Source: Candidatus Omnitrophota bacterium (GTDB taxonomy: Bacteria; Omnitrophota; Gorgyraeia; Tantalellales; Tantalellaceae). Taken from it: 39,878 nucleotides of DNA. The translations under genes were made by a program, and so were the position numbers. The DNA lies in contig DAOVKF010000001.1 in the NCBI GenBank assembly GCA_030631915.1, forward strand, positions 1-39,878, given 5' to 3'. The notes beneath the pieces are model-generated. The model was not told where the DNA came from and did not search any database. It saw only the letters and a list, made by a program, of their open reading frames with translations. Every line of letters begins with the position of its first letter. The first letter of the stretch is position 1. Positions 4,800-31,026 of the stretch are shown one piece after another.

Positions 4800-4888
4800 G
4801 AATAAGATAAAAGCCGGGGAGAGGAAAGGTGTCCTCTTGTCCAGAGAGCGGAGAGAGGACGCCTTTGTCATTCATGGGAGGAATGAAG

Positions 4889-5209
4889 ATGAAAAAGATC
4901 GAATGCATAATCCGTTCAGAGATGCTGAAAGGACTGAAAGAGGCCTTGAGACTGGCCGGTGTCGGGGGGATGACCATTACCGAAGTCAAAGGATTCGGAA
5001 GCGAGGCTACACGGCCGGATGCTTATCTGTTCCTGCCCAAGACCAAGGTTGAAATATATGCCGCTGATGAACAGGTGCAGGAGCTGGCCGCAGCGGTTAT
5101 TGATACCTGCCGCACGGGTGAATTAGGTGACGGCAAGATCATTGTTTCGCCGATGGATGAATGTATCCGGATAAGGACGGGCCAGAGAGGTGACGAGGCG
5201 ATATTTTAA
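4889..5209 (+). CDS. P-II family paralog with shortened, divergent T-loop
   Basis: MKKIECII... start is 6 nt after GGGAGGA, so the ORF-track start at 4829 is an upstream extension. [17 protein letters not shown] replaces the canonical [37 protein letters not shown] is retained. Confidence 0.8.
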   Translation: [106 protein letters not shown]

Positions 5210-14890: not shown

Positions 14891-14898
14891 GAGAATAA

Positions 14899-15612
14899 AT
14901 GAGTGAATATGTAACCCTTACAATTAACGGCGCTAAAGTAAGGGCGCCTCGAGGTACATCAGTATTGGACGCCGCGCTGGATTACGGGATATGCATACCG
15001 CACCTCTGTCACATGCAGGGGGTGATCCCCACGGGTGTCTGCCGTCTGTGTATCGTGGAGGTTATTGAAAAAGGCAGGTCAAAAGTTACTACCTCCTGCA
15101 CTCTTGAAGCGGAGGAAGGGATGGTAATTTTAGCTCATACGGACAAGATCCTTAAGGCGAGGAAGAATATCGCCGAGATGCTGGTAGCCGAAGCGCCTAA
15201 TTCACGCGCCATCCAGGACATTGCTCTCAAGTGCGGCGTTAAAGACGTCCGGTATCCTTTCCGCAATAAGGATTGCGTTTTATGCGGACGATGCGTCAGA
15301 GCCTGCACCGAGATATGGCGGTCCAGGTCCCTGGGTTTTGTGGGGCGCGGAGAACAGCGGCATGTCGCCCTTCCGTTCGACGAACGTCCGGAATTCTGTA
15401 AAAGATGCAATGCCTGTATCGATCTCTGTCCCATGACCATTACTCCGTGTGACGGGCCCATGAAAAAAGGCGAGGAATATTTTTGCGGGAAATGCGAGTC
15501 TCAACTGTCAATGTCGGAAGATTTTGTGGATAGTTGCGTGTGGTGCAGACTGGGAGAAGGGTTTGACGTGACAGGCAGACACGCCGGAAGAAAACAGGAG
15601 GATAAAAGATGA
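14899..15612 (+). CDS. NuoG/HydA N-terminal-like [2Fe-2S] + [4Fe-4S] ferredoxin (no catalytic domain)
   Basis: ITLTINGAKVRAPRGTSVLDAALDYGICIPHLCH, CRLCIVEV, CVLCGRCVRAC, CKRCNACIDLCP. Confidence 0.8.
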   Translation: MSEYVTLTINGAKVRAPRGTSVLDAALDYGICIPHLCHMQGVIPTGVCRLCIVEVIEKGRSKVTTSCTLEAEEGMVILAHTDKILKARKNIAEMLVAEAPNSRAIQDIALKCGVKDVRYPFRNKDCVLCGRCVRACTEIWRSRSLGFVGRGEQRHVALPFDERPEFCKRCNACIDLCPMTITPCDGPMKKGEEYFCGKCESQLSMSEDFVDSCVWCRLGEGFDVTGRHAGRKQEDKR

Positions 15613-17337: not shown

Positions 17338-17393
17338 AATTACAACATATAAGTTGTAATTTATTTGACAATACGACATATATGTTGTATAAT
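17338..17393 (+). promoter_or_regulatory. cassette promoter with two operator-like palindromes
   Basis: TTGACA (17365-17370), 17-nt spacer, TATAAT (17388-17393). Inverted repeat AATTACAAC-N6-GTTGTAATT at 17338-17361 and ATACGACAT-AT-ATGTTGTAT at 17371-17390. Confidence 0.6.
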
Positions 17394-17402
17394 TGTTCTA
17401 CA

Positions 17403-18122
17403 ATGAAAAAAGAGAAAATTTCAAGGTATCAGGACACGGTGCTCAGGGTTTTGGCGAACAAGATAGATGACTTCTATCTTGCCGGCGGCACCGCACTCTC
17501 TTTGTTTTATTTTCAACACAGATTATCTGTCGATCTGGATTTTTTTACTCCACATTTCTCATATAAGAGAATAGAAGAGATCGTTAGATATCTGGAAGGC
17601 GCTTTAGTGAAAGAAATTAAACTTATTGGACAAACGCTGGAAAAGGATAAGGCGAGGGTGCGGATCTATAATATATATTTCACGAAAAGAGATACCCTGA
17701 AAGTCGATTTTATCGAGGATCTTTTCAAACTCATTAAGCGGCCGAAAATAGTAGATGGCGTAAAAATATTATCTTTAGAGGATATATATCTGAGAAAACT
17801 GTATGCTATCGCCGGCATGATCCCTTTTCAGGACATAACAGGGAAAGAACGGTTTTTAGGCGGCAGGATAGAAGCAAAAGATTTTTATGATGTTTATTTC
17901 CTTTCGAGCACATTTATGTCTCTTTCGAGATTCGCGGAAAAATATACCGATAATACCGTAAAAGAAGGATTGATCAATTGGTTCCGCACTTATGACAGGA
18001 TGACCATGATGGACGATCTTTTAAGCTTGAATATAACTGAAAAAATAGACTATAAAAGCATGGATAAACATTTTAATGAAGAAATAGACAAGATCATCCA
18101 AAGGTATATAGAAAGAATATGA
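17403..18122 (+). CDS. nucleotidyltransferase, AbiEii/AbiGii (DUF1814)-type toxin family
   Basis: GGTALSLFYFQHRLSVDLDFF motif. The ATG at 17403 is about 10 nt after the -10 box, so the mRNA is probably leaderless. The ORF-track start at 17382 lies inside the promoter. Confidence 0.8.
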   Translation: MKKEKISRYQDTVLRVLANKIDDFYLAGGTALSLFYFQHRLSVDLDFFTPHFSYKRIEEIVRYLEGALVKEIKLIGQTLEKDKARVRIYNIYFTKRDTLKVDFIEDLFKLIKRPKIVDGVKILSLEDIYLRKLYAIAGMIPFQDITGKERFLGGRIEAKDFYDVYFLSSTFMSLSRFAEKYTDNTVKEGLINWFRTYDRMTMMDDLLSLNITEKIDYKSMDKHFNEEIDKIIQRYIERI

Positions 18123-18637
18123 AAAAAGACTGGTTATGGGACAGAAAAATAAGTCTTAGCGGGGCAAAAAAGATCCTCAGGGACTTTCAGGATAAAAAGT
18201 TCATTTTACTTGCCTCATTACTTTTGACACGAAAAAATGACCCCGAAGAGGTTTTCAGGGAATATATTGATCCGATCATGTTCTGCAAGAGCTGGCCTAA
18301 AATTAAGAAGAACATGCGTAAAAACAAATGGAGCGATAAACGGATCATTTTCTGGCAGGCCGTGTATGAGAAGCTCATGGAAAAATACCGCGGGGAAGGG
18401 ATCAGATTTAGGGAGAAGAAAGAGATAGCAATAGAGGAGATAAGCAGAAAGACAGGTGATCAAATACGAAGGATCAGAAGAGAGCAGGGGTTGTCCCAGA
18501 AGGAATTAGCGAAAAAAATGGGGGTTTCTCAACAGCAGATTTCCCGCATTGAAAAAGGCAAAGAGAATGTATCCCTGACAACGCTCACCGGTATTATGAA
18601 AGCCTTGAATAAAACAGTGAATATTACTTTTGGGTAG
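18119..18637 (+). CDS. XRE-family HTH protein (putative cognate antitoxin/regulator) with uncharacterised N-terminal domain
   Basis: ATGA overlap with the NTase gene. C-terminal HTH: IRRIRREQGLSQKELAKKMGVSQQQISRIEKGKENVSLTTL. Confidence 0.8.
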   Translation: MKKDWLWDRKISLSGAKKILRDFQDKKFILLASLLLTRKNDPEEVFREYIDPIMFCKSWPKIKKNMRKNKWSDKRIIFWQAVYEKLMEKYRGEGIRFREKKEIAIEEISRKTGDQIRRIRREQGLSQKELAKKMGVSQQQISRIEKGKENVSLTTLTGIMKALNKTVNITFG

Positions 18638-18647
18638 AAGCCGGGCA

Positions 18648-20045
18648 CTACGGGCTTTTGCCTGTCCAGCAGTAGCGGCATGTCTTTTCTTCGGGCAGGC
18701 CGATGGCTTCGACCATATCGTCAATGGTCTGATACCGCAAGGTGGTTACGTCAAGGTCCCGGGCGATCCATTCCACCATTTTACGGTATTTGCCGGAATC
18801 ATGGTCACAGTATTCCGACACGTCCTCTATGTCGTGCCCTTCCAGGCTTCGGATGGCTTTCCGGGCGGCCAGTTCATGGATGCTCCGCGTGGACAGACAG
18901 AATTTGCAGGGGAACATGAGCGGCGGGCACGCGGGCCTGACGTGAACCTCTTTGGCCCCGCATTCCCACAGTTTGGTCACCGTGAAATTCTTTAACTGCG
19001 TCCCTCTTACTATGGAATCCTCGCATACGACGATCCTGTTGCCCTCAATTATGTCCTTTATGGGGATGAGTTTCATGGTCGCGATCAGGTCGCGCGTTCC
19101 CTGCGACGGCGGCGTATAGCTCCGGCCGTATCCGGGCGTGTATTTTACCAGCGGCCTCCTCAAGGGTTTTCCGGACTCCATGGCATATCCCAGCGCGTGC
19201 GCGACCCCGGAATCGGGTATCCCGGCAACCAGGTCCACCTCGATGTCTTTATCTTTCCGCGCCAGGGACCTGCCGCATTTCTCGCGCACGGTCTCCACGT
19301 TGATGCCTTCATAACTCGAGGCGGGGAACCCGGTATATATCCAGAGAAAAGCGCAGATCTGGTTGTTTTTACCTCCCGGTCTTTTCTGCGCCATGCCCCG
19401 CTCGTTGAGCATGACTATTTCTCCGGGTTCCAGGTACTTTACCGTCTCGAACCCGTTATTCGGAAAAGCGCTGGTCTCGGAAGTGACTGCCCAGGCGTCT
19501 TCCCGTTTGCCTACGATAAGAGGCGTATATCCCAGGCGGTCCCTGGCGGCGTACACCCCGTCTTTATTCAGCAGCAGAAGGGAGCAGGAACCGTCGATCG
19601 CCTGGAACATTTTTTCTATGCCGTCTATGAGGCTGGTCCCCTGATTGATAAGTTTTGCCATCAGTTCCGTCACATTGACCGTCGCTGCGCTCATCTCGCT
19701 GAAAGAGATCCCCTTATCAAGAAGCGCTTCAGCCAGTTTTTCGGAGTTTTCTATGAGCCCGCTGGTGACGATACAGAACGGGCCGAACCTTGAATTAAGG
19801 AAGATCGGCTGTTCGTTACTGTCGCTGATAACCCCGATACCCTTGTTACCCGTCATCCGTCTGCAATCTTCATGGAATTTGGACTTGAACTGACTCTGGC
19901 TGATCTCATGGATCTGGCGCTGAAACACCTCTCCAAGGACCGCTATGCCCCCGTATTCCGTCCCCAGATGGGAGTGGTAATCCGTGCCGTATAACAGAAT
20001 GTCCGTACAATTTTCCCTGGAAACCACACCAAATATCCCGCTCAT
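18648..20045 (-). CDS. amidophosphoribosyltransferase (PurF) paralog with degenerate glutaminase site (Ser replaces the N-terminal Cys)
   Basis: RBS AAGAGGAGA, then a 6-nt spacer, then ATG AGC GGG (MSGIFG). The PRTase motifs are retained ([27 protein letters not shown]), as are the Fe-S Cys positions. The glutaminase motifs are lost. Confidence 0.85.
   Translation of the reverse strand: MSGIFGVVSRENCTDILLYGTDYHSHLGTEYGGIAVLGEVFQRQIHEISQSQFKSKFHEDCRRMTGNKGIGVISDSNEQPIFLNSRFGPFCIVTSGLIENSEKLAEALLDKGISFSEMSAATVNVTELMAKLINQGTSLIDGIEKMFQAIDGSCSLLLLNKDGVYAARDRLGYTPLIVGKREDAWAVTSETSAFPNNGFETVKYLEPGEIVMLNERGMAQKRPGGKNNQICAFLWIYTGFPASSYEGINVETVREKCGRSLARKDKDIEVDLVAGIPDSGVAHALGYAMESGKPLRRPLVKYTPGYGRSYTPPSQGTRDLIATMKLIPIKDIIEGNRIVVCEDSIVRGTQLKNFTVTKLWECGAKEVHVRPACPPLMFPCKFCLSTRSIHELAARKAIRSLEGHDIEDVSEYCDHDSGKYRKMVEWIARDLDVTTLRYQTIDDMVEAIGLPEEKTCRYCWTGKSP
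18664..18702. repeat. right copy of the 39-bp direct repeat (inside the purF' 3' end)
   Basis: 38/39 identical to 17231-17269. Encodes GLPEEKTCRYCWTG of the intact gene. Confidence 0.85.
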
Positions 20046-20057
20046 CTTTCATCTCCT

Positions 20058-20104
20058 CTTGAGTGTCATCCCTGCTTGAGAGTCATCCCCGCGAAAGCGG
20101 GGAT
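20058..20104 (-). repeat. tandem 17-nt repeat plus GAAA-loop hairpin spanning the carB1 stop and the carB1-purF' spacer
   Basis: CTTGAGTGTCATCCCTG (20058-20074) and CTTGAGAGTCATCCCCG (20075-20091). Hairpin ATCCCCGC-GAAA-GCGGGGAT at 20085-20104. Confidence 0.6.
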
Positions 20105-23100
20105 CTATCCGACTGATGATATTCCTGAAGCGCCTTTGGCAGTAATTTACGTGTTTTGACGGCTTCAATGCCCGTAATACTCGCTTCAGCGGCTGCGATC
20201 GACGTGACATACGGGGTTTTTCGCTGTATCGCCATCATGCGGATATAACTGTCGTCGTATTTGCTGTCACGCCCTATAGGTGTATTGATAATGAGCTGCA
20301 GGCCGTCATTTTTGATCGCGTCAGAGATATTGGGCCTTCCTTCATGCAGCTTGTTGATCCGGACGTTATTTATTTTGTTCTTGTTCAAGAACTCACTTGT
20401 CCCTTTTGTGGCGTAGATAGTGAACCCGAGCGCCACGATCTTTTGCGCGATGGGTAGCAGCGCCGGTTTGTCCTTATCGGTGACCGTCAGCAGCACATTC
20501 CCTTCGACCGGGAGTTTTGATCCAGCCGCTTCCTGGGCCTTGTAAAAAGCGAGCTCGAACGAATCCGCGATACCCATCACTTCACCGGTGGCTTTCATTT
20601 CCGGGCCGAGGAGCGGGTCGACCTCCGGGAACATATTGAACGGAAAAACGGCTTCTTTCACCCCTACGTAGGGCAAATGACGGGTCTTTAATTCAGGAAA
20701 ATCGCTTAACTTTTTTCCCAGCATGACCTGTGTCGCGACCCTGGCTATGGGCATGCCTGTCATTTTAGACACAACAGGGACGGTGCGGGACGCGCGCGGG
20801 TTCGCTTCAAGGATATAAACCATATCGTCACAGATAGCGTACTGTATATTCATGAGCCCGACGACTTTGAGTTCCTTCGCGATGATCGCGGTATATTTTT
20901 CAATTTGCTCAAGATGTTCTTTCTTTATGGTCCGGGTCGGGATGGAGCACGCGGAGTCGCCCGAATGAACTCCTGCCAGCTCGATATGTTCCATGACAGA
21001 AGCGATAAACGTTGCTTCGCCGTCGGATAACGCGTCAACCTCCGCTTCAACCGCTTTTTCAAGGAACCTGTCGATGAGCATGGGGTGTTCAGGGCTGACC
21101 CGGATAGCCTCGACCGCGTATTTTCTGAGCGATCCTTCGTCGTAAATGATCTGCATGCCCCGGCCGCCAAGAACGTAGGAGGGCCGCACCATGAGCGGGT
21201 AGCCGATCTTTTCCGCGATACTCAGGGCTTCCTCAAGTGACCGCGCTGTATCGCTCTCCGGCTGCGGGATCCCGAGCGCGATCATTTTCTCGCGGAACCG
21301 CTCTCGGTCCTCGGCGAAATGGATGCTTTCCGGCGATGTCCCCAGGATCCTGACACCGTTATCTTTCAGCTCCCGGGCTATGTTAAGGGGCGTCTGGCCC
21401 CCGAACTGGACTATAACACCTTCGGGTTTTTCTTTTTCATAAATGGACAGGACGTCCTCAACGGTCAACGGTTCAAAATAGAGTTTATCGGATGTGTCAT
21501 AATCGGTCGATACTGTTTCAGGGTTGCAGTTGACCATGATCGATCCATACCCTTCGTCGCGCAGGGCGAACGCGGCGTGAACGCAGGCATAGTCGAACTC
21601 TATCCCCTGCCCGATCCTGTTCGGCCCGCCGCCGAGGATCATGACTTTTCTGCTTGCGGAAACCGGGCTCTTGTCTTCAATGCTTTTATACGTTGAATAA
21701 TAATACGCGGCATTCTCCACACCGCTTACAGGAACAGCCTCGTAACGGGCCGTTTTCCCGATGGAGATCCTTTTATCCCGCACTTCTTTTTCGGCGACAT
21801 TAAAGAGCCCTGAGAGATATCTGTCGGAAAATCCCCACTCCTTCGCTTTCGCGAGTTCGGCATGGGGAAGGTCCTTCCACGCGCGGGAGAGCAGTTCTTC
21901 CTCAAGATCAACGAGCTCTTTTATCTCATTGATGAACCAGCGTCCGATATAGGTCAGGCTGTGAAGTTCGTCCACGCCCATGCCTTTACGCAACGCTTCA
22001 TACATCAGAAAGACGCGTTCACTCGAGGGAAAAGCAAGTTTTTGTTTCAGTTCGTTCAGTGAAAGTTCCTTGAAGTTCTTAGCGCCGCCCAGGCCGTAAC
22101 GGTTGATCTCCAGGGAGCGGATGGACTTCTGGAAAGACTCCTTGAAGGTTTTTCCGATACTCATGACTTCGCCGACGGCTTTCATTTGCGTGCCCAGGAT
22201 ATCAGTGGATTGGGAGAATTTTTCAAACGCCCATCGCGCGAATTTAACGACGACATAGTCACCGCACGGCGAGTATTTTTCAAGTGTCCCGTCCCTCCAG
22301 TAGGGGATCTCGTCCATGGTTAACCCGGCCGCGAGTTTTGTCGAGATGCGCGCGATAGGAAAACCGGTCGCCTTTGAAGCAAGCGCGGAAGAACGGGAAG
22401 TTCTCGGATTGATCTCAATGACCACCACTCTGCCGTCTTCCGGATTATGGGCGAATTGGATATTGGTCCCGCCGACGACCCCGATCGCGTCAACGATCTT
22501 ATAAGAGATATCCTGCAGCCGTTCCTGCAGCTCCGGAGGGACGGTCAGCATAGGGGCGGTGCAGAAACTGTCTCCGGTATGCACGCCCATGGCGTCGACA
22601 TTTTCAATAAAGCACACCGTGATCTTCTGGTTTTTCTCGTCTCTTACGACTTCAAGTTCCAGTTCTTCCCATCCCAGGACAGACTCTTCGACCAGGACCT
22701 GATGGACAAGGCTTGCGGCCAGGCCCCGGGTGACGATCGTTCTCAGCTCTTCCACATTGTAAGCCATGCCGCTGCCGGTCCCGCCCATAGTGTACGCGGG
22801 CCTGAGCACAACGGGATAACCGAGCTTTTCGGCTATTTTTTCAGCTTCCTCGACAGAATGACAGGGTTCGGATGCGGGAAGACCGAGGCCCAGGCCTATC
22901 ATGGTCTTTTTGAATTCGGTCCGGTCTTCGCCCCGCTCAATGGCTTCCGGCTTGACGCCGATCATCTCTACCCCGTATTTTTTTAAAAACCCGGACTTAT
23001 AAAGGCTGGAGGAAAGGTTAAGCCCTGTCTGTCCCCCTAAATTAGGGAGCAGTCCGTCAGGCCGTTCTTTTTCAATGATCGCCTCAAGGCTCTTGACAGT

Positions 23101-23307
23101 AAGCGGTTCTATGTAAGTTTTATCAGCCATGCCGGGATCCGTCATTATCGTGGCCGGGTTTGAGTTGACCAGCACAACTTCATAACCTTCTTCTTTTAAC
23201 GCCTTGCACGCCTGGGTGCCGGAATAGTCGAATTCACAGGCCTGTCCGATAATAATGGGGCCGGAACCGATTATAAGAATTTTGCTCAAGTCGCTGCGTT
23301 TTGGCAT
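20083..23307 (-). CDS. carB: carbamoyl-phosphate synthase large subunit, paralog 1 (no adjacent small subunit on its strand)
   Basis: 1074 aa, full two-ATP-grasp architecture. [42 protein letters not shown]. Confidence 0.95.
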   Translation of the reverse strand: MPKRSDLSKILIIGSGPIIIGQACEFDYSGTQACKALKEEGYEVVLVNSNPATIMTDPGMADKTYIEPLTVKSLEAIIEKERPDGLLPNLGGQTGLNLSSSLYKSGFLKKYGVEMIGVKPEAIERGEDRTEFKKTMIGLGLGLPASEPCHSVEEAEKIAEKLGYPVVLRPAYTMGGTGSGMAYNVEELRTIVTRGLAASLVHQVLVEESVLGWEELELEVVRDEKNQKITVCFIENVDAMGVHTGDSFCTAPMLTVPPELQERLQDISYKIVDAIGVVGGTNIQFAHNPEDGRVVVIEINPRTSRSSALASKATGFPIARISTKLAAGLTMDEIPYWRDGTLEKYSPCGDYVVVKFARWAFEKFSQSTDILGTQMKAVGEVMSIGKTFKESFQKSIRSLEINRYGLGGAKNFKELSLNELKQKLAFPSSERVFLMYEALRKGMGVDELHSLTYIGRWFINEIKELVDLEEELLSRAWKDLPHAELAKAKEWGFSDRYLSGLFNVAEKEVRDKRISIGKTARYEAVPVSGVENAAYYYSTYKSIEDKSPVSASRKVMILGGGPNRIGQGIEFDYACVHAAFALRDEGYGSIMVNCNPETVSTDYDTSDKLYFEPLTVEDVLSIYEKEKPEGVIVQFGGQTPLNIARELKDNGVRILGTSPESIHFAEDRERFREKMIALGIPQPESDTARSLEEALSIAEKIGYPLMVRPSYVLGGRGMQIIYDEGSLRKYAVEAIRVSPEHPMLIDRFLEKAVEAEVDALSDGEATFIASVMEHIELAGVHSGDSACSIPTRTIKKEHLEQIEKYTAIIAKELKVVGLMNIQYAICDDMVYILEANPRASRTVPVVSKMTGMPIARVATQVMLGKKLSDFPELKTRHLPYVGVKEAVFPFNMFPEVDPLLGPEMKATGEVMGIADSFELAFYKAQEAAGSKLPVEGNVLLTVTDKDKPALLPIAQKIVALGFTIYATKGTSEFLNKNKINNVRINKLHEGRPNISDAIKNDGLQLIINTPIGRDSKYDDSYIRMMAIQRKTPYVTSIAAAEASITGIEAVKTRKLLPKALQEYHQSDRSPLSRG

Positions 23308-23419: not shown

Positions 23420-23447
23420 ATAATATCAATTTTAGAATACTTTTCAA
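23420..23447 (-). promoter_or_regulatory. promoter candidate for carB1-purF' (minus strand)
   Basis: Minus strand: TTGAAA, 16-nt spacer, TATTAT. Confidence 0.45.
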
Positions 23448-23471: not shown

Positions 23472-23500
23472 TTTACAACCCGGGGCACTTCCTGTATAAT
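23472..23500 (+). promoter_or_regulatory. promoter candidate for the carA operon
   Basis: TTTACA (23472-23477), 17-nt spacer, TATAAT (23495-23500). Confidence 0.55.
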
Positions 23501-23554: not shown

Positions 23555-24637
23555 ATGAAAGCGGTTTTAGTGTTAGAAGACGGGGCAGTATTTAACGGCC
23601 ATGCGTTCGGAGCAATAAAAAAAGATACGTATGGCGAGATCGTCTTTAACACCAGCATGTCGGGTTACCAGGAGATCATCACGGATCCTTCCTACAAGGG
23701 GCAGATAGTCGCCATGACCTATCCTCTTATAGGGAATTACGGTATCAACGACGAGGACGTGGAGTCCGCAGGGCCGCGGGTCGAAGGGTTGATAATAAGA
23801 GAACTGTGCGCGGTCCCGAGCAATTTCCGGTCAAAGATGTCCCTTGACGAATATCTGAAAAAGCATGACGTTATGGGCATTACTGACGTTGACACAAGGG
23901 CTGTCACGCGCCATATCAGGACACAGGGCGCCATGAAAGGGGTTATTTCAACGGCAACGGAAAACGCGGCCGAGCTGGCCGACAGGGTAAAAGCTTCACC
24001 CGGGCTCATAGGCATGGACCTTGTAAAAGAAGTGACCTGTGATAAGGCGGTTAAATGGAACGAAGACGGGGCCATGAGGGTCGCTGTCCTGGATTGCGGC
24101 GTGAAGTACAGCATATTGAGAAATCTGGAGAAAAGGGGCTGCGCGGTGACGCGTTTCCCCGCAGGAACGGATGCCGCGACGATCTTGAGGACGAAACCTC
24201 ACGGGGTCCTTTTGTCAAACGGTCCGGGCGATCCGGAAGGCGCTCCGTATGTTTTTAAGACTGCCAGGGAGCTTCTCGGAAAGGTTCCGATCTTCGGTAT
24301 TTGCCTTGGCCACCAGATGCTCGGGCTGGCTCTCGGGGGAAAGACCTATAAACTCAAGTTCGGACATCATGGCGGCAACCATCCTGTCAAGGACCTTTGC
24401 TCGGAAAAAGTCAGTATTACGGCGCAGAACCACGGGTTTTGCGTGGACTTTGATTCAGTAAGATCAAAAGGGGCCAGAATAACCCATATAAATCTTAACG
24501 ATAACACGGTCGAAGGCATGGAAAGTGACGAGCTCAGGTTTTTCAGTATCCAGTTCCATCCTGAGGCAGGACCGGGTCCCAACGACGCGGTGTATATGTT
24601 CGATAAGTTTATCGATAACATGCGGAAGGGCGTTTAG
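23555..24637 (+). CDS. carA: carbamoyl-phosphate synthase small (glutaminase) subunit
   Basis: MKAVLVLEDG..., triad GATase motif PIFGICLGHQML, and HGGNHPV. Confidence 0.95.
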   Translation: MKAVLVLEDGAVFNGHAFGAIKKDTYGEIVFNTSMSGYQEIITDPSYKGQIVAMTYPLIGNYGINDEDVESAGPRVEGLIIRELCAVPSNFRSKMSLDEYLKKHDVMGITDVDTRAVTRHIRTQGAMKGVISTATENAAELADRVKASPGLIGMDLVKEVTCDKAVKWNEDGAMRVAVLDCGVKYSILRNLEKRGCAVTRFPAGTDAATILRTKPHGVLLSNGPGDPEGAPYVFKTARELLGKVPIFGICLGHQMLGLALGGKTYKLKFGHHGGNHPVKDLCSEKVSITAQNHGFCVDFDSVRSKGARITHINLNDNTVEGMESDELRFFSIQFHPEAGPGPNDAVYMFDKFIDNMRKGV

Positions 24638-24679
24638 GGGGGGCAAGGGGCAAAAGCGGGATGCGGGAGTTAAGAAAAT

Positions 24680-27600
24680 ATGCCGAAGAGGGATGATATA
24701 AAAAGTATTCTCATAATAGGGTCCGGGCCGATCGTTATCAGCCAGGCTTGTGAGTTCGACTATTCCGGCACGCAGGCGTGCAAGGCCTTGAGAGCGGAAG
24801 GTTATAAAGTCATTCTTGTCAATTCAAACCCGGCCACGATAATGACGGATCCGGAAATGGCAGACAGGACGTACGTGGAACCGATAACCCCGGAAGTTGT
24901 GGCAGGGATAATCGAAAAGGAAAGGCCGGACGCGCTCCTCCCCACGCTCGGCGGTCAGACAGGGCTCAATACAGCCATGAAACTGCATGAGATGGGGGTC
25001 CTCGACAAATTCGATGTCAGGATGATAGGCGCGGACTATGAGACGATCAAGAAAGCGGAGGACAGGGAAGATTTCAAGGCGGCAATGCAGAGGATCGGTC
25101 TGGACCTGCCTGAAAGCGGGCTGGCCCGCAACATGGAAGAGGCCGTTGAAGCCGCAGACAGGATCGGCTTGCCCCTTATCATCAGGCCGAGTTTCACTCT
25201 CGGAGGCACAGGCGGCGGTGTAGCCCGTGACATGAAGAAGTTCAGGGAAGTCGCGTCACTGGGTCTCCGTAACAGCATGACAAGCGAGATCCTTATCGAA
25301 GAATCGATCACAGGGTGGAAGGAATATGAACTCGAGGTCATGCGCGATAAAAAAGACAATGTGGTTATTGTCTGTTCCATAGAAAACCTCGACCCCATGG
25401 GCATACATACAGGGGACAGCATCACCGTTGCTCCGCAGCAGACCCTTTCGGATAAAGAATATCAGAGGATGAGGGACGCGGCGATCGCCATAATCCGGGA
25501 GATCGGGGTCGAGACCGGAGGTTCGAACATCCAGTTTGCCGTGAACCCTGCCAACGGCAGGATGGTCGTTATAGAGATGAACCCCAGGGTTTCCCGCAGT
25601 TCCGCCCTGGCGAGTAAGGCTACCGGGTTCCCCATTGCCAAGTTCGCGGCCAAACTGGCAGTGGGATACACTCTGGACGAGATCCCCAACGATATAACCA
25701 GAGAGACACCGGCTTCGTTCGAACCGGCCATCGACTATTGTGTCGTGAAGATCCCCAGGTTTACTTTTGAGAAGTTTCCCAAAGCCGATCCGACCCTGGG
25801 TATTTCCATGAAATCCGTGGGCGAGACAATGGCGATAGGCCGGACGTTCAAAGAAGCCTTTCAAAAAGGGCTCAGGGGACTGGAGACAGGCAGGACAGGG
25901 CTGAATTATCCAAAGGATCCGGGGTCCGTAAGCGAGGAACGGCTGAACGGTTTTCTGAACCAGCCCGGGCCGGACAGGATATTCTATTTGAAGGAATCTT
26001 TCAGGCGGGGATATGATGTCCCGCGCCTTTTTGAATTGACGGGGATAGACCCGTGGTTCCTGCGTAATATCAGGGAGATCATCGATCATGAGAACGGACT
26101 CAAGGAAAAACTCAAGGGCATCGACCTGACCGCGTCCGTAAATGACAGGGATATCTGTGAAAACGTGAAAAAAGCAAAGAAGTTCGGGTTCAGTGATCCA
26201 CAGCTGGCGGACATGGCCGGTTGTGATGAGATCGCTTTCCGGGCGTTCCGAAAAAAAGCGGGGATCATAGCCGCCTATAAACTCGTTGATACCTGTGCCG
26301 CTGAATTCGAGGCGTACACGCCGTATTATTACTCGACATATGAGGATGAGTGCGAGGCCGGAAGGTCGGATAAAAAGAAAATAATGATCCTGGGCGGCGG
26401 CCCGAACAGGATAGGCCAGGGCATAGAGTTTGATTACTGCTGCTGCCATGCTTCGTTCGCTCTTAAAGAAGCGGGATTTGAGACTATCATGGTGAATTCC
26501 AACCCGGAAACGGTCAGTACGGATTATGATACCTCTGACAAGCTTTATTTCGAGCCATTGACGTTTGAGGACGTGATGAACATCGTGGATAAAGAGAAAC
26601 CCGATGGTGTCATTGTCCAGTTCGGGGGCCAGACGCCCCTCAACCTGGCGGACAGGCTCTGGAAAGAGGGGGTGCCTGTTATAGGCACGTCCGTGGAATC
26701 AATAGCGCTGGCCGAGGACCGTGAACAGTTCAAGCGCCTTCTTCATTCTCTGGGACTTAGACAACCGCCGAACGATACGGCCAACTCCGCCGGAGAGGCC
26801 ATGCGCAAGGCGGAGAAGATAGGATACCCCGTGGTGGTGAGGCCGTCTTATGTGCTCGGCGGCCGGGCCATGAGGATCGTCTATGACAGGGAGACTCTCG
26901 AAGAATATATAAAAGAAGCGGTCGATGTCTCCTCCGGCCATCCGGTGCTTCTGGATAAATTCCTTCAGAACGCGATCGAGGTGGACGTGGACGCGCTGGC
27001 CGACGGTGATGATGTGGTCATAGGCGGGATAATGGAACATATCGAGGAAGCCGGCATTCATTCAGGCGACTCCGCGTGTACGCTTCCGCCGCATACTTTA
27101 TCCGGGGACATCATGGACAAGATAAAAAGGCAGACGAAAAAGCTTGCCATGGCGCTGGATATTAAAGGTCTTATGAACGTCCAGTATGCTGTCAGGGACA
27201 GCGAGATATTTATATTGGAGGTCAACCCGCGGGCTTCCAGGACCGTTCCCTTTGTATCCAAAGCCACGGGCGTACCCATGGCTAAAGCCGCTGCAATGAT
27301 CATGGCGGGGAAGAAGATCAGGGACATGGGCGTGAAGGACCCCATGGAAACATTGAATTATATAAGCGTCAAGGAATCCGTCCTTCCTTTTTCAAGATTT
27401 TCCGGGGTAGATATTATCCTCGGCCCGGAAATGATGTCCACCGGCGAGGTCATGGGGATATCCGGGGATTTCGGCAGTGCTTTTGCCAGGGCCCAGTCCG
27501 GCGCCGGACAGGCGTTACCCCTGGAAGGCAGGGTTTTTGTTTCCGTGCAGGACAAGGATAAGCGCAATATCGTGTTCCCGGCGAAAAAACTGTATGACCT

Positions 27601-27934
27601 CGGGTTCGAGCTTATCGCTACCGAAGGCACCGCGAAAACACTGCAGAACAACAACATACAGGTCGATGTAGTGAAGAAAATGCATGAGGGAAGCCCGAAC
27701 GTCCTGGACATGGTCAAAAGCGGCGGGGTAGCGCTTATCATAAATACCCCTTCCGGTAAAAAGCCGCATAAAGACGGCGCTGTTATAAGGAGCGCGGCGA
27801 TCATGCGGGGGATCCCGTGTATAACCACTCTTGCCGGCGCTCAGGCGTCAGTGAACGGCATAGAGTCGATGATGAAGATGGGTATAGCCGTCAAATCTCT
27901 TCAGGAATATTATGACACCCGGACCAAGGGATAA
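24680..27934 (+). CDS. carB: carbamoyl-phosphate synthase large subunit, paralog 2 (co-oriented with carA)
   Basis: 1084 aa. Collinear with paralog 1 but clearly diverged throughout. Confidence 0.95.
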
Positions 27935-29315
27935 AAAAGAAAAGTGCGGTGTCTTCGGCATTTACGGCCATGAACTTGCCGTTGATCTGACGTATCTGGG
28001 GCTGTATTCCCTGCAGCATAGAGGCGAAGAATCATGCGGTATCGCTGTTTTTAACGGAAAGAAGCTGTGCCAGCTGGTCGATATGGGGCTTGTTTCGGAT
28101 GTTCTTAGAAAAAACAGATTAAAAGGGCTGAAAGGCCGGACCGCGATAGGGCATGTCCGGTATTCCACAACCGGTTCCAGCATATTGAGGAACGCGCAGC
28201 CTTTTGTCATAAGTCATAACAGGATATCCTTTTCCATAGCCCATAACGGCAACCTGACGAACGCCGTAAAGCTCAGGAGAGAGCTTGAACAGGACGGCGC
28301 CATTTTCCAGACGACAATGGACTCCGAGATGGTCATGCATCTCTTGGTCCGGTCAAAGAAAGAACTTTTCGAGGAAAGGCTCATAGACGCGTTGAGACAA
28401 TGCGAAGGCGCTTTCACCATGCTTTGCCTGACCGGGGACAGTCTCATAGGGGTCAGGGACCCCCATGGTTTCCGCCCTTTATGCCTGGGGAAAAAGGACG
28501 GAGCTTATGTTCTCGCGAGCGAGACCTGTTCCCTTGACCTTATCGACGCCGAATTTATCCGGGAGATAGAACCCGGAGAGGTTATCATTATTTCCGAACA
28601 GGGGATCGAATCGAAAAAGCCTTTTGACCGAAGGACCGTGTCGCCGTGTATTTTCGAATTTATCTATTTCGCGCGTCCTGACAGCCGCATCTTCGGGGAC
28701 AGTGTCTACCGGGTGCGTAAAAACCTGGGCAGGAAACTCGCCCGGGAGCATCCCGCTGAGGCGGACATGGTCATGTCGATACCGGATTCAGGAAATTACG
28801 CTGCCCTGGGATATTCGGAAGAAAGCGGTATACCGTTCGAATTCGGGATGGTAAGGAACCATTATGTGGGCAGGACGTTTATCCAGCCGTCGCAGGAGAT
28901 GCGGAAACACGGGGTGAAGATCAAGCTCAACCCGATCAAAGATGTCCTGAAAGGGAAACGGGTCATAGTCGTGGAAGACTCGATCGTCAGGGGCACGACT
29001 ACGGGCGGCAGAATAAAAGCTCTCAGGGAGGCGGGCGTCAAAGAGATCCACATGCGGATAAGCTGCCCCCCGATCAGGTTCCCGTGTTTTTACGGGATAG
29101 ATTTTCCGAGCAGGAAGGAGCTGATAGCCAACCAGCTTCCATCCATAGAAGAAATAGCGAAGTTCATCGGCGTGGACAGCTTGAAATATCTCAGTCTCGA
29201 GGGGATGCTGGAAACCGTGAGGAACAAAGAGAACGGGTTTTGCGCCGCCTGTTTCAGCGGGGACTATCCTACGAAAGTAGGCAGGAAAGCGGTCAAGACG
29301 CCTTTTGAGCGTTGA
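27912..29315 (+). CDS. purF: amidophosphoribosyltransferase (canonical, with propeptide and Fe-S Cys ligands)
   Basis: [19 protein letters not shown] (11-residue propeptide before the Cys). [39 protein letters not shown]. Overlaps the carB end by 23 nt. Confidence 0.93.
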
Positions 29316-29329
29316 TAAACGGATAATTG

Positions 29330-29386
29330 TCCGTCATCGTGAGGAGGGCCGACCCGATCCGTCATTGCGAGGGAGACAAAGCGATC
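29330..29386 (+). repeat. two tandem about 28-nt units of a TCCGTCAT...GAT(C) short repeat in the purF-pyrG spacer
   Basis: TCCGTCATCGTGAGGAGGGCCGACCCGA followed by TCCGTCATTGCGAGGGAGACAAAGCGATC. Confidence 0.45.
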
Positions 29387-29412
29387 TTTATAAGAACGAT
29401 AAAAGGAGCAGT

Positions 29413-31026
29413 ATGGCCAAATATATTTTTATAACCGGTGGGGTCGTTTCCAGTCTCGGCAAGGGCATAGCTTCAGCCTCTATCGGGAAAGTTCTGGAAT
29501 GGAACGGTTATAAAGTCGCTCTTGTGAAATGTGATCCTTATATCAACGTCGACCCCGGGACAATGAATCCTTACCAGCACGGAGAGGTCTATGTCACGGA
29601 TGACGGAGCCGAGACCGACTTGGACCTCGGCCATTATTACCGGTATACCGCCTCACCGCTTTCCCGGATAAGCAACGTAACCACGGGAAAGGTGTACCAG
29701 AAGGTGATAACAAAAGAACGCCGCGGGGATTTTCTCGGAGGCACCGTCCAGATAATACCGCATATAACGAACGAGATCAAGAATGAGATCCGTCAGGTCG
29801 AGAAAAAGCACAACGTGGATATAGTGCTTGTCGAGATCGGCGGGACAGTAGGCGATATTGAAAGTCTTCCCTTTCTGGAATCCATCCGTCAGATGAAAAA
29901 TGAGGAAGGCCCGGCCAACGCGATCAACATCCACCTTACGCTTGTCCCGTTCATCAAAGCCGCCGGCGAGATCAAGACCAAACCCACCCAGCATTCAGTG
30001 GGCAAGCTCAGGGAAATAGGTATCCAGCCCGAGATCCTCATGGTGCGCACGGAAAAGCCTCTTACCGCCGCCGCCAAGGCCAAGATCGCTCTTTTCTGTA
30101 ATGTCCGGGAGGATTGCGTTATAGAAGCCAGGGATGTCAATGATGTCTATGAAATACCGGTTATGTTCAAGAACAACGGCATGGACAAAAGTATCCTTGA
30201 GAAATTGAATTTGAAACAAAAAAAAGGCAGCGGGGCGAAAAGATGGAAAAAGCTCGTGGAAATAAGGAAATCCACGAAGAAAACGGTCAGGATAGGGGTT
30301 GTGGGGAAATATATAACCCTGCAGGACGCTTACAAATCTATTGACGAAGCCCTGAAGCACGGGGCCATAGCCAACAGGGTGAAACTGGATCTCGTGAAGA
30401 TAGAATCCGGCGTTATTGAGAACAAGACGCCGGGAGATATTAGAGACGTTTTCAAGGGCATAGCAGGCGTGCTGGTCCCCGGAGGTTTCGGCGTGAGGGG
30501 AATAGAGGGAAAACTCGCGGCCGCGCGGTACGCCAGGGAGAACGCTCTTCCGTATTTCGGGATATGCCTTGGCATGCAGATAGCCGTGATCGAGTTTGCG
30601 CGTAACGTGTGCGGCATGAAAAGCGCGAATTCAACGGAGTTTAACGCCAGGACAAAGCACCCGGTGATCTCGCTCCTGTCCGAGCAAAAGAAGGTGAAAT
30701 GCATGGGCGGCACAATGCGGCTCGGGGCGTACAGATGCAAACTGAGCCCCGGCACTCTTGCGAGAAAGATCTATGGCACGGACCAGGTGATGGAGAGGCA
30801 CCGGCATCGTTACGAGTTCAACAACACGTTCAGGGACAGGTTCCGGAAGCACGGCATGGTGTTCAGCGGGACACATCCAAAGGGCAACCTGGTCGAGATA
30901 GTGGAATTAAAGGACCATCCCTGGTTCCTGGCGGTCCAGTTCCATCCGGAATTCCGGTCCAAACCCGACAGGGTCCATCCCCTGTTCAGGGGGTTTGTGA
31001 AAGCCGCGATCGCGAAGGAGACTTAA
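29413..31026 (+). CDS. pyrG: CTP synthase
   Basis: MAKYIFITGGVVSSLGKG start after AAGGAG. The ORF-track start at 29305 reads through the repeat and is rejected. GATase motif FGICLGMQ. Confidence 0.95.
   Translation: MAKYIFITGGVVSSLGKGIASASIGKVLEWNGYKVALVKCDPYINVDPGTMNPYQHGEVYVTDDGAETDLDLGHYYRYTASPLSRISNVTTGKVYQKVITKERRGDFLGGTVQIIPHITNEIKNEIRQVEKKHNVDIVLVEIGGTVGDIESLPFLESIRQMKNEEGPANAINIHLTLVPFIKAAGEIKTKPTQHSVGKLREIGIQPEILMVRTEKPLTAAAKAKIALFCNVREDCVIEARDVNDVYEIPVMFKNNGMDKSILEKLNLKQKKGSGAKRWKKLVEIRKSTKKTVRIGVVGKYITLQDAYKSIDEALKHGAIANRVKLDLVKIESGVIENKTPGDIRDVFKGIAGVLVPGGFGVRGIEGKLAAARYARENALPYFGICLGMQIAVIEFARNVCGMKSANSTEFNARTKHPVISLLSEQKKVKCMGGTMRLGAYRCKLSPGTLARKIYGTDQVMERHRHRYEFNNTFRDRFRKHGMVFSGTHPKGNLVEIVELKDHPWFLAVQFHPEFRSKPDRVHPLFRGFVKAAIAKET

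What the first reader, a model, noticed from the sequence alone, without database searches (positions are those of the whole stretch)
18648..20045. PurF paralog with Ser in place of the Ntn catalytic Cys and other glutaminase motifs lost
The start is well supported: AAGAGGAGA, a 6-nt spacer, then ATG AGC GGG, giving MSGIFG instead of (M)CG(V/I)FG.

Aligned by eye to the canonical purF at 27912:
- [12 protein letters not shown] becomes YHSHLGTEYGGIA.
- [10 protein letters not shown] becomes GVISDSN, with a deletion.
- AHNGNLTN becomes VTSGLIEN.

The PRPP/PRTase motifs ([17 protein letters not shown]) are conserved. So are the Cys residues at the positions of the PurF [4Fe-4S] ligands (CAFLWIY, PACPPLMFPC, CRYC).

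This looks like a pseudo-glutaminase fused to an apparently functional PRTase, co-transcribed downstream of the extra carB.
Basis: seen in the sequence. Interest (0 to 1): 0.75.

Follow-up and report, generated by a model that had tools for sequence, protein, structure and literature searches.

The report
Cysteine-less PurF paralog, probably ammonia-dependent
This gene encodes a widespread, highly conserved copy of the first purine-synthesis enzyme that has lost its glutamine-splitting site and, judging from its recurrent neighbours, most likely makes phosphoribosylamine directly from free ammonia.

Summary
ORF 18648-20045 (-) encodes a 465-aa PurF homolog starting MSGIFG. The Ser is not a sequencing error: none of 245 family members has Cys there (Ser 165, Gly 71, Thr/Ala/Asn/Ile 9).

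Five of the six glutamine-site positions are lost, including an 8-residue loop deletion. The PRPP loop, the flexible loop and all four [4Fe-4S] cysteines are kept. The AlphaFold model (pLDDT 92) superposes on B. subtilis PurF (TM 0.84).

The protein belongs to a deep clade with the motif YGTDYHSHLGT, found in at least 599 species across many anaerobic bacterial and archaeal phyla.

The "extra" carB is a distinct CarB2 lineage. It sits beside this paralog, never with carA, in Omnitrophota, Desulfobacterota, Lentisphaerae and Elusimicrobiota. In several genomes DUF1846/PyrJ, an experimentally shown ammonia-only CTP synthase, lies inside the same module. Elsewhere the paralog sits in pur operons, often next to canonical purF.

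Best reading: an ammonia-dependent PRPP aminotransferase, part of a glutamine-independent nucleotide module that mirrors carA-carB-purF-pyrG.

A Cys-less "PurF'" was noted in Crenarchaeota in 2011 with the same untested hypothesis. No biochemistry was found.

The parts
18648..20045 (-). purF' ORF: 465-aa Cys-less PurF paralog
   Evidence: TIGR01134 purF scores 205 bits, below the cut-off of 350. Pfam finds GATase_7.
20040..20042 (-). AGC codon for Ser2, at the position of the Ntn catalytic Cys
   Evidence: family-wide this position is S165, G71, T5, A2, N1, I1 and C0, out of 245.
20052..20060 (-). Shine-Dalgarno AAGAGGAGA, 6 nt before the ATG. An in-frame TGA lies between it and the ATG.
19371..20045 (-). 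N-terminal Ntn-fold domain (about residues 1-225). Glutamine-site residues are lost: Cys1 to Ser2, Arg26 to Leu27, the Arg72/Tyr73 loop deleted, Asn102 to Ser95, Asp127 to Val125. Gly103 is kept as Gly96. Family motifs are YGTDYHSHLGT and QFKSKF.
18648..19370 (-). Type-I PRTase domain plus C-terminal region
19092..19148 (-). PRTase flexible loop VKYTPGYGRSYTPPSQGTR (residues 300-318). K301, R308, S309 and R318 are invariant; Q315 is nearly invariant.
18996..19025 (-). PRPP-binding loop [10 protein letters not shown] (residues 341-350). The family-specific invariant Gln350 replaces the canonical Thr.
19353..19355 (-). Cys231, aligned with [4Fe-4S] ligand Cys236 of B. subtilis PurF
18906..18908 (-). 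Cys380, aligned with ligand Cys382
18669..18680 (-). Cys456-x-x-Cys459, aligned with ligands Cys437 and Cys440
18771..18869 (-). Family-specific insertion of about 24 to 33 residues (residues 393-425), absent from canonical PurF
20083..23307 (-). carB2: full-length carbamoyl-phosphate synthase large subunit of a distinct lineage, with no cognate carA on its strand. It lies immediately upstream of purF' (37-nt gap).
23420..23447 (-). Sigma-70-like promoter (TTGAAA-16-TGnTATTAT) facing carB2-purF'
   Evidence: This is a consensus match only.
23472..23500 (+). Divergent sigma-70-like promoter (TTTACA-17-TATAAT) facing carA-carB1-purF
   Evidence: This is a consensus match only.
23555..31026 (+). 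Glutamine-dependent counterparts on the opposite strand: carA (23555-24637), carB1 (24680-27934), canonical purF (27912-29315), pyrG (29305-31026)

Best explanation
The gene encodes a PurF' enzyme: a [4Fe-4S]-type PRPP amidotransferase homolog that can no longer hydrolyse glutamine. It most likely catalyses PRPP + NH3 -> 5-phosphoribosylamine + PPi directly with free ammonia.

Shown:
- The two-domain PurF fold is kept.
- The PRPP loop, the flexible loop and the four cluster cysteines are conserved.
- The nucleophile and the glutamine-binding residues are absent throughout the clade.
- The gene recurs in pur operons.
- It recurs in tight operons with a CarA-less CarB2 and with PyrJ, a biochemically proven NH3-only CTP synthase.

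Inferred:
- The PRTase site is catalytically active with NH3.
- The conserved N-domain serves as the entry, gate and channel for NH3/NH4+ and as an oligomer interface. The small residue 2 (Ser or Gly) would allow Met removal and leave a free alpha-amine.
- CarB2 makes carbamoyl phosphate from NH3 without a glutaminase subunit.
- Together, CarB2, PurF' and (in relatives) PyrJ form a glutamine-independent route into pyrimidines/arginine, purines and CTP. This route works beside the glutamine-dependent carA-carB1-purF-pyrG set encoded divergently in this window. It would spare the ATP cost of glutamine synthetase when ammonia is plentiful, or keep nucleotide synthesis going when glutamine is scarce.
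For: Fold and motifs:
- The best PDB match is B. subtilis PurF 1ao0 (E 2e-56).
- The AF2 model has pLDDT 92 and TM 0.84 to 1ao0.
- The PRPP loop, the flexible loop and the four Cys are invariant or nearly invariant in alignments A1 and A2.

Loss of the glutaminase:
- Residue 2 is never Cys in 245 members.
- Arg26, the Arg-Tyr loop, Asn102 and Asp127 are replaced or deleted.
- E. coli PurF Cys1-to-Ser/Ala mutants lose glutamine activity but keep NH3 activity, as summarised in PMC3261824.

Selection:
- PurF' is 73-77% identical between genomes whose canonical PurFs are 49-55% identical.
- N-domain column identity is 0.81 against 0.89 for the PRTase domain.

Gene context in 80 species-level loci:
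- CarB2 is adjacent in 9, with gaps of 4-21 nt and variable gene order.
- All these CarB proteins are 65-73% identical to window CarB2 and 49-52% to CarB1.
- carA is adjacent in 0.
- PyrJ/DUF1846 is adjacent in 5.
- Canonical purF is adjacent in 5.
- Other pur genes are adjacent in 6, including purL-purQ-purF'-purM with no canonical purF nearby (L022, L023).

Reciprocal look-ups from CarB2 homologs found purF' beside 3 of 5, two of them with PyrJ in between. A fourth CarB2 sits in a pyr operon without carA.

PyrJ (DUF1846) converts UTP to CTP with ammonia but not glutamine (bioRxiv 10.1101/2024.09.24.614635).

In L082 the pair is embedded between GDH and glnA. The window itself is a nitrogen-assimilation supercluster.
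Against: - No enzyme of this clade has been assayed. NH3-dependence rests on guilt by association and on mutant behaviour of a distant homolog.
- In about 60 of 80 loci the neighbours are uninformative.
- Strong conservation of the dead N-domain is not predicted by a simple loss-of-function model.
- Co-transcription with canonical purF in L013, L018 and L066 fits a hetero-oligomer or regulatory role as well as a parallel isozyme.
- CarB2 could still borrow the single CarA encoded 250 bp away.
- The channel-lining loop is more polar than in canonical PurF (RSYT against RTFI), so the nucleophile route may differ.
- This window has no pyrJ.
Confidence: 0.55

Rival explanations
1. PurF' is a non-autonomous partner of canonical PurF. 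It would be a catalytically modified subunit that assembles with PurF (normally a homo-oligomer) to tune its activity, feedback inhibition or stability. Alternatively, it would be a PRPP or nitrogen sensor for the pathway.
For: Canonical purF and purF' are adjacent in five phyla, including Asgard archaea (L013, L018, L066, L038, L071). This was also reported for Crenarchaeota (PMC3261824). The N-domain, which contributes to PurF interfaces, is very conserved despite having no catalytic residues. Both copies coexist in this window.
Against: All PRTase catalytic motifs and the Fe-S ligands are invariant, which is unnecessary for a pure regulator. Most loci have no canonical purF within 8 kb, and three pur operons carry purF' in the purF slot alone. 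The association with CarB2 and PyrJ points to chemistry with ammonia rather than regulation of PurF.
Confidence: 0.18
2. The enzyme has new chemistry. One possibility is that the remodelled N-domain accepts a different nitrogen donor, for example carbamate or carbamoyl phosphate handed over by CarB2, or another amide. Another is that the PRTase domain transfers ribose-phosphate to a nucleophile other than ammonia, so the product or the donor is not that of PurF.
For: There are family-specific invariant or near-invariant residues in the N-domain: C13, D22, Y23, H24/H26, H46, F53, K54, F57, S74, N124, E127. There are family-specific changes at the PRTase site: RGTQ for RGTT, YTGFPAS for YF(A/S)RPDS, and a 24-33-residue insertion. 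Operons with CarB2 are translationally tight.
Against: No nucleophile is available at position 1, since Gly occupies it in 29% of members. Placement inside pur operons between purQ and purM argues for the PurF reaction. The third module member, PyrJ, simply uses free NH3. There is no evidence for a CarB2-PurF' complex.
Confidence: 0.12
3. Ser2 acts as an alternative N-terminal nucleophile, as in Ser-Ntn hydrolases, so the protein is still a glutamine-dependent or other amide-dependent amidotransferase.
For: Ser is the residue in 165 of 245 members and in 115 of the 116 closest homologs whose N-terminus could be read. Ser and Thr are bona fide Ntn nucleophiles in other families (general knowledge).
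Against: Gly, Ala, Asn or Ile occupy the position in 75 of 245 members of the same clade, with otherwise identical motifs. The glutamine-binding Arg, Asn and Asp and the Q-loop are gone. The E. coli PurF C1S mutant has no glutamine activity (PMC3261824).
Confidence: 0.04
4. Artefact or decaying pseudogene: a TGC-to-AGC sequencing error, or a degenerating duplicate of purF.
For: None beyond the single-codon difference that prompted the question.
Against: The reading frame is intact. A 96-100% identical protein is found in other assemblies. The same N-terminus occurs in hundreds of independent genomes. Conservation is stronger than for canonical PurF. GC content is the same as in the surrounding genes.
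Confidence: 0.01

Closest known systems
Glutamine PRPP amidotransferase PurF, [4Fe-4S] type (B. subtilis; PDB 1AO0, 1GPH)
   Same: It has the same two-domain Ntn + type-I PRTase fold (TM 0.84). It has the same four cluster cysteines, PRPP loop and flexible loop. It occurs in purine operons.
   Different: There is no N-terminal Cys and no propeptide. Arg26, the Arg-Tyr Q-loop (8-residue deletion), Asn102 and Asp127 are lost. There is a 24-33-residue C-terminal insertion, and RGTQ replaces RGTT. Identity is about 30%. It falls below the NCBIfam purF equivalog cut-off (205 against 350 bits).
PurF' of Crenarchaeota, and Mlab_0150 of Methanocorpusculum (Brown et al. 2011, Biol Direct 6:63, PMC3261824)
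   Same: These are PurF paralogs lacking the N-terminal Cys (Ser in Mlab_0150). They are encoded near purF and pur genes and were hypothesised to be ammonia-dependent.
   Different: Crenarchaeal PurF' mostly has Ala or Val at that position, whereas this clade has Ser or Gly. Whether they are the same lineage or independent losses was not tested here. The 2011 paper does not describe the bacterial breadth, the DYHSHLGT signature or the CarB2/PyrJ module.
PyrJ (DUF1846/UPF0371), ammonia-dependent CTP synthase (bioRxiv 10.1101/2024.09.24.614635)
   Same: It has the same logic: a glutamine-independent enzyme doing the job of a glutamine amidotransferase (PyrG), and it coexists with that enzyme. 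It is physically encoded between or beside carB2 and purF' in L011, L069, L093 and L094, and beside purF' in L012, L055 and L081.
   Different: It has an unrelated fold (P-loop ATPase + deaminase-like). It is not a degenerate homolog of PyrG. It is absent from this window.
Carbamoyl-phosphate synthetase I (ammonia-dependent CPS of ureotelic animals)
   Same: It retains a glutaminase-like domain that is catalytically dead, and it uses only free ammonia (NH3 use: PMC6022934). The Cys-to-Ser change in its glutaminase domain is from my own knowledge.
   Different: It belongs to a different enzyme family (class-I triad GATase fused to the CPS synthetase). It needs N-acetylglutamate. It is eukaryotic.
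E. coli PurF Cys1 to Ser/Ala mutants (Mei and Zalkin 1989, as cited in PMC3261824)
   Same: They have a Ser at position 1, lack glutamine-dependent activity and retain NH3-dependent activity.
   Different: These are laboratory point mutants in an otherwise intact glutamine site. Here the whole site is remodelled and the change is fixed by evolution.

Membership tests
PurF, glutamine PRPP amidotransferase (EC 2.4.2.14) | Two-domain architecture: N-terminal Ntn (class II) amidotransferase fold plus C-terminal type-I PRTase | tested here: met
   Pfam finds GATase_7. The whole length aligns to 1ao0. The AF2 model has TM 0.84 to 1ao0/1gph.
PurF, glutamine PRPP amidotransferase (EC 2.4.2.14) | N-terminal catalytic Cys, exposed by Met or propeptide removal | tested here: not met
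   Residue 2 is Ser. There is an in-frame stop upstream. Cys occurs in 0 of 245 clade members.
PurF, glutamine PRPP amidotransferase (EC 2.4.2.14) | Glutamine-site residues Arg26, Arg73/Tyr74 loop, Asn101-Gly102 and Asp127 (E. coli numbering; residue roles from my own knowledge of the PurF structures) | tested here: not met
   These positions read Leu27, loop deleted, Ser95-Gly96 and Val125. Only the Gly is kept.
PurF, glutamine PRPP amidotransferase (EC 2.4.2.14) | PRPP-binding loop (D/E)DSIVRGT and PRTase flexible loop K..GR(T/S)..PSQ..R | tested here: met
   The protein has EDSIVRGTQ and VKYTPGYGRSYTPPSQGTR. D343, S344, R347, K301, R308, S309 and R318 are invariant.
PurF, glutamine PRPP amidotransferase (EC 2.4.2.14) | Score above the curated equivalog threshold (NCBIfam TIGR01134, 350 bits) | tested here: not met
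   It scores 205 bits. The canonical purF of the same window scores 528.
PurF, glutamine PRPP amidotransferase (EC 2.4.2.14) | Glutamine-dependent synthesis of phosphoribosylamine | not testable with these tools
   This needs an enzyme assay.
[4Fe-4S] subclass of PurF (B. subtilis type) | Four Cys ligands equivalent to Cys236, Cys382, Cys437 and Cys440 | tested here: met
   Cys231, Cys380, Cys456 and Cys459 align to them. Three are invariant and one is at least 90% conserved in A2.
PurF' (Cys-less PurF paralogs, Brown et al. 2011) | PurF homolog lacking the N-terminal Cys, distinct from the organism's true PurF | tested here: met
   A canonical purF lies in the same window.
PurF' (Cys-less PurF paralogs, Brown et al. 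2011) | Encoded close to purF or other purine-synthesis genes | tested here: met
   It is 7.9 kb from purF in the same cluster. It is directly adjacent to purF in L013, L018, L066, L038 and L071, and in pur operons in L022, L023 and L031.
PurF' (Cys-less PurF paralogs, Brown et al. 2011) | Same phylogenetic cluster as the crenarchaeal PurF' sequences | not tested
They carry Ala or Val rather than Ser or Gly. At least one further Cys-less group exists (MAGLFGL..QQHLGEE).
CarB2 / PyrJ / PurF' glutamine-independent module (proposed here) | purF' adjacent to a CarB2-lineage carB without carA | tested here: met
   Window: 37-nt gap. Nine of 80 related loci and 3 of 5 reciprocal loci show it. CarB2-type identity is 65-81%. 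There are no carA hits.
CarB2 / PyrJ / PurF' glutamine-independent module (proposed here) | pyrJ (DUF1846) in the module | tested here: not met
   There is no DUF1846 homolog in the window (tblastn). It is present in relatives L011, L069, L093 and L094.

The most novel reading that the evidence does not exclude
PurF' is not just a PurF that lost its glutaminase. Its strongly conserved, remodelled N-domain would have a new function, such as capturing and deprotonating NH4+ or receiving nitrogen from CarB2-made carbamate or carbamoyl phosphate. PurF', CarB2 and PyrJ would then act as a physically or kinetically coupled ammonia-only nucleotide-synthesis system. In some anaerobes this system would replace the glutamine-dependent enzymes altogether.
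Probability: 0.15. Interest if true: 0.9.

Novelty: new variant of a known kind. Interest (0 to 1): 0.68.

Why it matters
Textbook purine synthesis begins with a glutamine-dependent PurF. A dedicated, ancient and very widespread ammonia-using form would add a second entry point of inorganic nitrogen into purines. This form occurs in at least 599 species representatives across Omnitrophota, Planctomycetota, Desulfobacterota, Clostridia, Bacteroidales, Verrucomicrobiota/Lentisphaerae, Asgard and other archaea.

This would parallel the 2024 discovery that PyrJ is an ammonia-only alternative to PyrG.

The recurrent operon CarB2-(PyrJ)-PurF' suggests that many anaerobes carry a coherent glutamine-independent set for carbamoyl phosphate, CTP and purines. 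That has three consequences:
- It changes how nitrogen and ATP budgets are modelled for low-energy anaerobes.
- It affects metabolic reconstruction, because these genes are all annotated simply as "amidophosphoribosyltransferase" or "carB".
- It gives a directly testable function for thousands of database entries.

It may also bear on the classical ammonia requirement of gut and rumen Bacteroidales. That link comes from my own recollection and is a lead only. Prevotella, Alistipes and Muribaculaceae do carry the Gly form.

Tried and rejected
- **Sequencing error or mis-called start:** rejected.
- **Ser as a nucleophile:** rejected because Gly occupies the same position in 29% of the clade.
- **carB adjacency as a local accident:** this was suggested at first by five close homologs with unrelated neighbours. 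It was overturned by the 80-locus survey and the reciprocal look-ups.
- **Apparent carB2::purF' fusion ORF in L063:** a frameshift artefact.
- **362-aa gene upstream of carB2 in L091:** not a divergent CarA.
- **Regulatory RNA or sites in the 247-bp divergent region and the carB2 leader:**
  - No Rfam hit, even at E<=1.
  - The leader fold is not better than shuffles (z = -0.9).
  - There are no inverted repeats.
  - Sigma-54 -24/-12 matches are below the chance expectation.
- **Literature:** nine searches found no biochemical characterisation of a Cys-less PurF and no description of the CarB2/PyrJ/PurF' association.
- **Could not be done:**
  - Inspecting model coordinates (not exposed).
  - Placing crenarchaeal PurF' in the tree.
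  - Analysing the CarB2 surface that would contact CarA.
Full report
**1. The observation**

The minus-strand ORF 18648-20045 is intact and encodes 465 aa beginning MSGIFGVVS.
- The Shine-Dalgarno AAGAGGAGA lies at 20060-20052, followed by a 6-nt spacer and the ATG at 20045-20043.
- An in-frame TGA two codons upstream excludes a longer protein with a hidden Cys or propeptide. That was the error found for some archaeal purF genes by Brown et al..

The protein is 31% identical (E 2e-64) to the canonical purF at 27912-29315. It hits the NCBIfam purF equivalog at only 205 bits (cut-off 350), whereas the canonical copy scores 528.

**2. What is lost and what is kept**

I aligned the protein to B. 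subtilis PurF (PDB 1ao0, E 2e-56) and to the canonical copy.

| B. subtilis PurF position | Window protein |
|---|---|
| Cys1 | Ser2 |
| Arg26 | Leu27 |
| Gly27 | Gly28 |
| Loop carrying Arg72-Tyr73 | 8-residue deletion |
| His101-Asn102-Gly103 | Thr94-Ser95-Gly96 |
| Asp127 | Val125 |

The roles of these residues in glutamine binding and catalysis are from my own knowledge of the E. coli and B. subtilis PurF structures.

The following are conserved within the family:
- the PRPP loop EDSIVRGT(Q);
- the PPi motif PDSG;
- the flexible loop VKYTPGYGRSYTPPSQ..R;
- the four cluster ligands, where Cys231, Cys380, Cys456 and Cys459 correspond to Cys236, Cys382, Cys437 and Cys440.

An AlphaFold2 model built on 22 family sequences is confident (mean pLDDT 92, pTM 0.89). 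Its best structural matches are PurF structures over the whole length (TM 0.84 to 1ao0 and 1gph).

**3. Not an error and not a relic**

A search of 5.8 billion proteins returned more than 8000 hits. The 120 best are 77-100% identical, and where the N-terminus is present nearly all begin MSG(I/V)FG.

A search against 50%-identity representatives showed a much wider clade at 35-68% identity. Its signatures are YGTDYHSHLGT and QF(K/R)(S/T)KF, and its N-termini read MSG.., MGGFFG.., MTG.. or MAG...

Across 245 members with a recognisable N-terminus, residue 2 is Ser 165, Gly 71, Thr 5, Ala 2, Asn 1, Ile 1 and Cys 0. Ser is therefore a subclade habit, not a replacement nucleophile.

In a neighbour-joining tree the DYHSH clade separates from the canonical Cys-containing PurFs. 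At least one further Cys-less group exists.

The family is under strong constraint:
- Between this window and a Phycisphaerae genome, PurF' is 77% identical while the canonical PurFs are 49% identical. Against an Omnitrophota genome the figures are 73% and 55%.
- The catalytically dead N-domain is almost as conserved as the PRTase domain, with column identity 0.81 against 0.89.
- GC content of the gene equals that of its surroundings.

**4. Distribution**

A pattern scan of one genome per species found at least 599 species encoding a relative.

The best 80 loci span Omnitrophota, Planctomycetota, Clostridia, Desulfobacterota/Syntrophia, Elusimicrobiota, Gemmatimonadota, Acidobacteriota, Verrucomicrobiota/Lentisphaerae/Kiritimatiellae, Bacteroidales, Spirochaetes, Anaerolineae, Altiarchaeota, Methanobacteriota, Thermoplasmatota and Asgard archaea.

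**5. Neighbours**

The first five close homologs had unrelated neighbours. Clustering all ORFs of the 80 loci gave clear recurrent partners.

(a) **A carB gene** is adjacent in 9 loci from Omnitrophota, Desulfobacterota, Lentisphaerae (Victivallis) and unclassified bacteria.
- Gaps are 4-21 nt in several loci, and both gene orders occur.
- All these CarB proteins are 65-73% identical to the window's CarB2 and only 49-52% to CarB1.
- No carA is present in any locus.

(b) **DUF1846** is adjacent in 5 loci. In L011 the order is DUF1846-purF'-carB2, and in L069 it is carB2-DUF1846-purF'.

(c) **Canonical purF** is adjacent in 5 loci from five phyla (L013, L018, L066, L038, L071).

(d) **Other pur genes** occur in 6 loci. 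These include the Omnitrophota operons purB-purL-(LOG)-purQ-purF'-purM...purD-purE, with no canonical purF within the flanks (L022, L023).

(e) **Glutamine synthetase** is next to the pair in L060 and L082. In L082 the order is Glu-synthase-like FMN protein, a PPDK_N/response-regulator protein, GDH, a small ORF, purF', carB2, glnA, then a sigma-54 activator.

Reciprocal look-ups starting from CarB2 homologs (a tight family, 79-84% identical among the top 120) gave five loci:
- carB2-x-purF' in Elusimicrobiota, starting MSGIFG;
- carB2-x-DUF1846-purF';
- purF'-DUF1846-carB2;
- carB2 inside a pyrR-pyrBI-pyrC...pyrK operon without carA;
- one isolated carB2.

CarB2 itself is full-length, 52% identical to CarB1, and above the carB equivalog cut-offs.

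**6. The key outside fact**

DUF1846/UPF0371 (S. pneumoniae Spd_0310, renamed PyrJ) is synthetic-lethal with pyrG. The purified protein converts UTP to CTP with ammonia but not glutamine (bioRxiv 10.1101/2024.09.24.614635). That paper mentions neither purF nor a carB association, and I found no later paper linking them.

The module around purF' therefore contains one proven ammonia-only replacement of a glutamine amidotransferase (PyrJ for PyrG). It also contains a CPS large subunit that consistently lacks its glutaminase partner.

In this window the arrangement is a mirror image. On one strand lie purF' and carB2. Then comes a 247-bp region with back-to-back sigma-70-like promoters. On the other strand lie carA, carB1, purF, pyrG, guaA, purSL and purQ.

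The window as a whole is a nitrogen-assimilation supercluster. It holds a glnA fragment, a GAF regulator, an ECF sigma factor, amtB, PII, gltB, gltD and glmS.

**7. Mechanism**

Shown:
- The PurF fold is retained.
- The PRTase and Fe-S machinery are intact.
- The glutaminase machinery is absent.
- The gene is linked to purine genes and to glutamine-independent nucleotide enzymes.

From the literature: E. coli PurF with Cys1 replaced by Ser or Ala loses glutamine-dependent activity but keeps ammonia-dependent activity (Mei and Zalkin 1989, as summarised in PMC3261824).

Inferred:
- PurF' catalyses PRPP + NH3 -> phosphoribosylamine.
- With the Q-loop deleted, the former glutamine pocket is an open entry to the interdomain channel.
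- The small residue at position 2 guarantees Met removal and a free alpha-amine, which might help deprotonate NH4+.
- CarB2 uses NH3 directly.

I put this at about 0.55.

The main rival (0.18) is that PurF' works only with, or on, canonical PurF. Its frequent adjacency to purF and its conserved N-domain fit that too.

A more novel rival (0.12) is a new nitrogen donor or acceptor, possibly linked to CarB2. It is motivated by the unexplained family-specific conserved residues and the altered PRTase motifs (RGTQ, YTGFPAS, and a 24-33-residue insertion).

Ser-nucleophile and artefact readings are essentially excluded.

**8. Comparison with the known**

The protein fails three defining features of PurF proper: the N-terminal Cys, the glutamine site and the equivalog score. 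It should not be annotated as a glutamine amidotransferase, although it very probably works like the NH3-dependent half-reaction of PurF.

It fits the definition of "PurF'" given by Brown et al. 2011 for Crenarchaeota: Cys-less, near purF, hypothesised to be ammonia-dependent. Common ancestry with those sequences, which carry Ala or Val at position 1, was not tested.

Functional analogues are PyrJ and CPS I, which uses ammonia only. That the glutaminase-like domain of CPS I carries Ser in place of the catalytic Cys is from my own knowledge.

I found no biochemical study of any Cys-less PurF in the searchable literature.

**9. Verdict**

The finding is real and correctly read. The gene is a member of a large, ancient, uncharacterised variant of PurF.

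The new elements from this analysis are:
- the clade-wide absence of any nucleophile;
- the unusually strong conservation;
- the conserved CarB2-(PyrJ)-PurF' module, which turns a 2011 hypothesis into a well-supported and directly testable one.

Novelty: new variant of a known kind. Interest: 0.68.

Noticed in passing
window 12549-17195 (+), and L082 888-2471: NuoE-like, NuoF-like and ferredoxin-like genes are followed by a 528-aa protein that has only the FMN 'Glu_synthase' domain. It has no Ntn glutaminase domain, carries an N-terminal CxxCxxxCxxxC motif and has no NCBIfam hit. It lies next to a complete gltB/gltD. A 70%-identical homolog lies upstream of GDH-purF'-carB2-glnA in a Desulfobacteraceae genome. 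This may be another glutaminase-less, ammonia-using relative of a glutamine amidotransferase.
   Followed up: partly
window 17382-18637 (+): An AbiEii-type nucleotidyltransferase toxin gene and an HTH gene overlap by 4 nt. Their GC is 0.42-0.45 against 0.51-0.55 around them. This is probably an inserted toxin-antitoxin/abortive-infection pair, ending 10 nt from the convergent purF' stop.
   Followed up: partly
window 1-39878: The whole window is a nitrogen supercluster: glnA C-terminal fragment (3-548), GAF-domain regulator (545-1264), ECF sigma factor (1396-1959), amtB (3031-4386), PII (4829-5209), GNAT (5265-6095), gltB, gltD, then nearly every glutamine amidotransferase of nucleotide and amino-sugar synthesis (carAB, purF, pyrG, guaA, purSL, purQ, glmS) in one direction.
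   Followed up: partly
window 27912-27934: The canonical purF start overlaps the end of carB1 by 23 nt, so carA-carB1-purF look translationally coupled. carB is therefore next to a purF-type gene on both strands.
   Followed up: no
L011 6456-12713; L069 1-4190; L093 8001-15149; L094 4858-11201: Three-gene modules combine pyrJ (DUF1846), purF' and carB2 in different orders, with 9-140-nt gaps. pyrJ also lies beside purF' alone in L012 (Pirellulales), L055 (Acidobacteriota) and L081 (Lentisphaerae). This extends PyrJ well beyond the Firmicutes and Actinobacteria noted by its discoverers.
   Followed up: yes
P0229, P0240, P0246, P0247, P0257, P0269: A second Cys-less PurF-like group of about 445-466 aa begins MAGLFGL/MVGLCGL and has QQHLGEE in place of LQHRGQE. 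One member is from Patescibacteria and is named a hypothetical protein. It branches apart from the DYHSH clade, which suggests repeated loss of the nucleophile.
   Followed up: partly
window 32615-35497 (+) and 36375-36449 (+): purL carries an N-terminal PurS domain, making a PurS-PurL fusion. A tRNA gene sits between purQ and glmS.
   Followed up: no
L063 7303-8001: The carB2 3' end is frameshifted in this long-read MAG, which creates a spurious ORF that reads from CarB into purF'. It is not a real fusion.
   Followed up: yes
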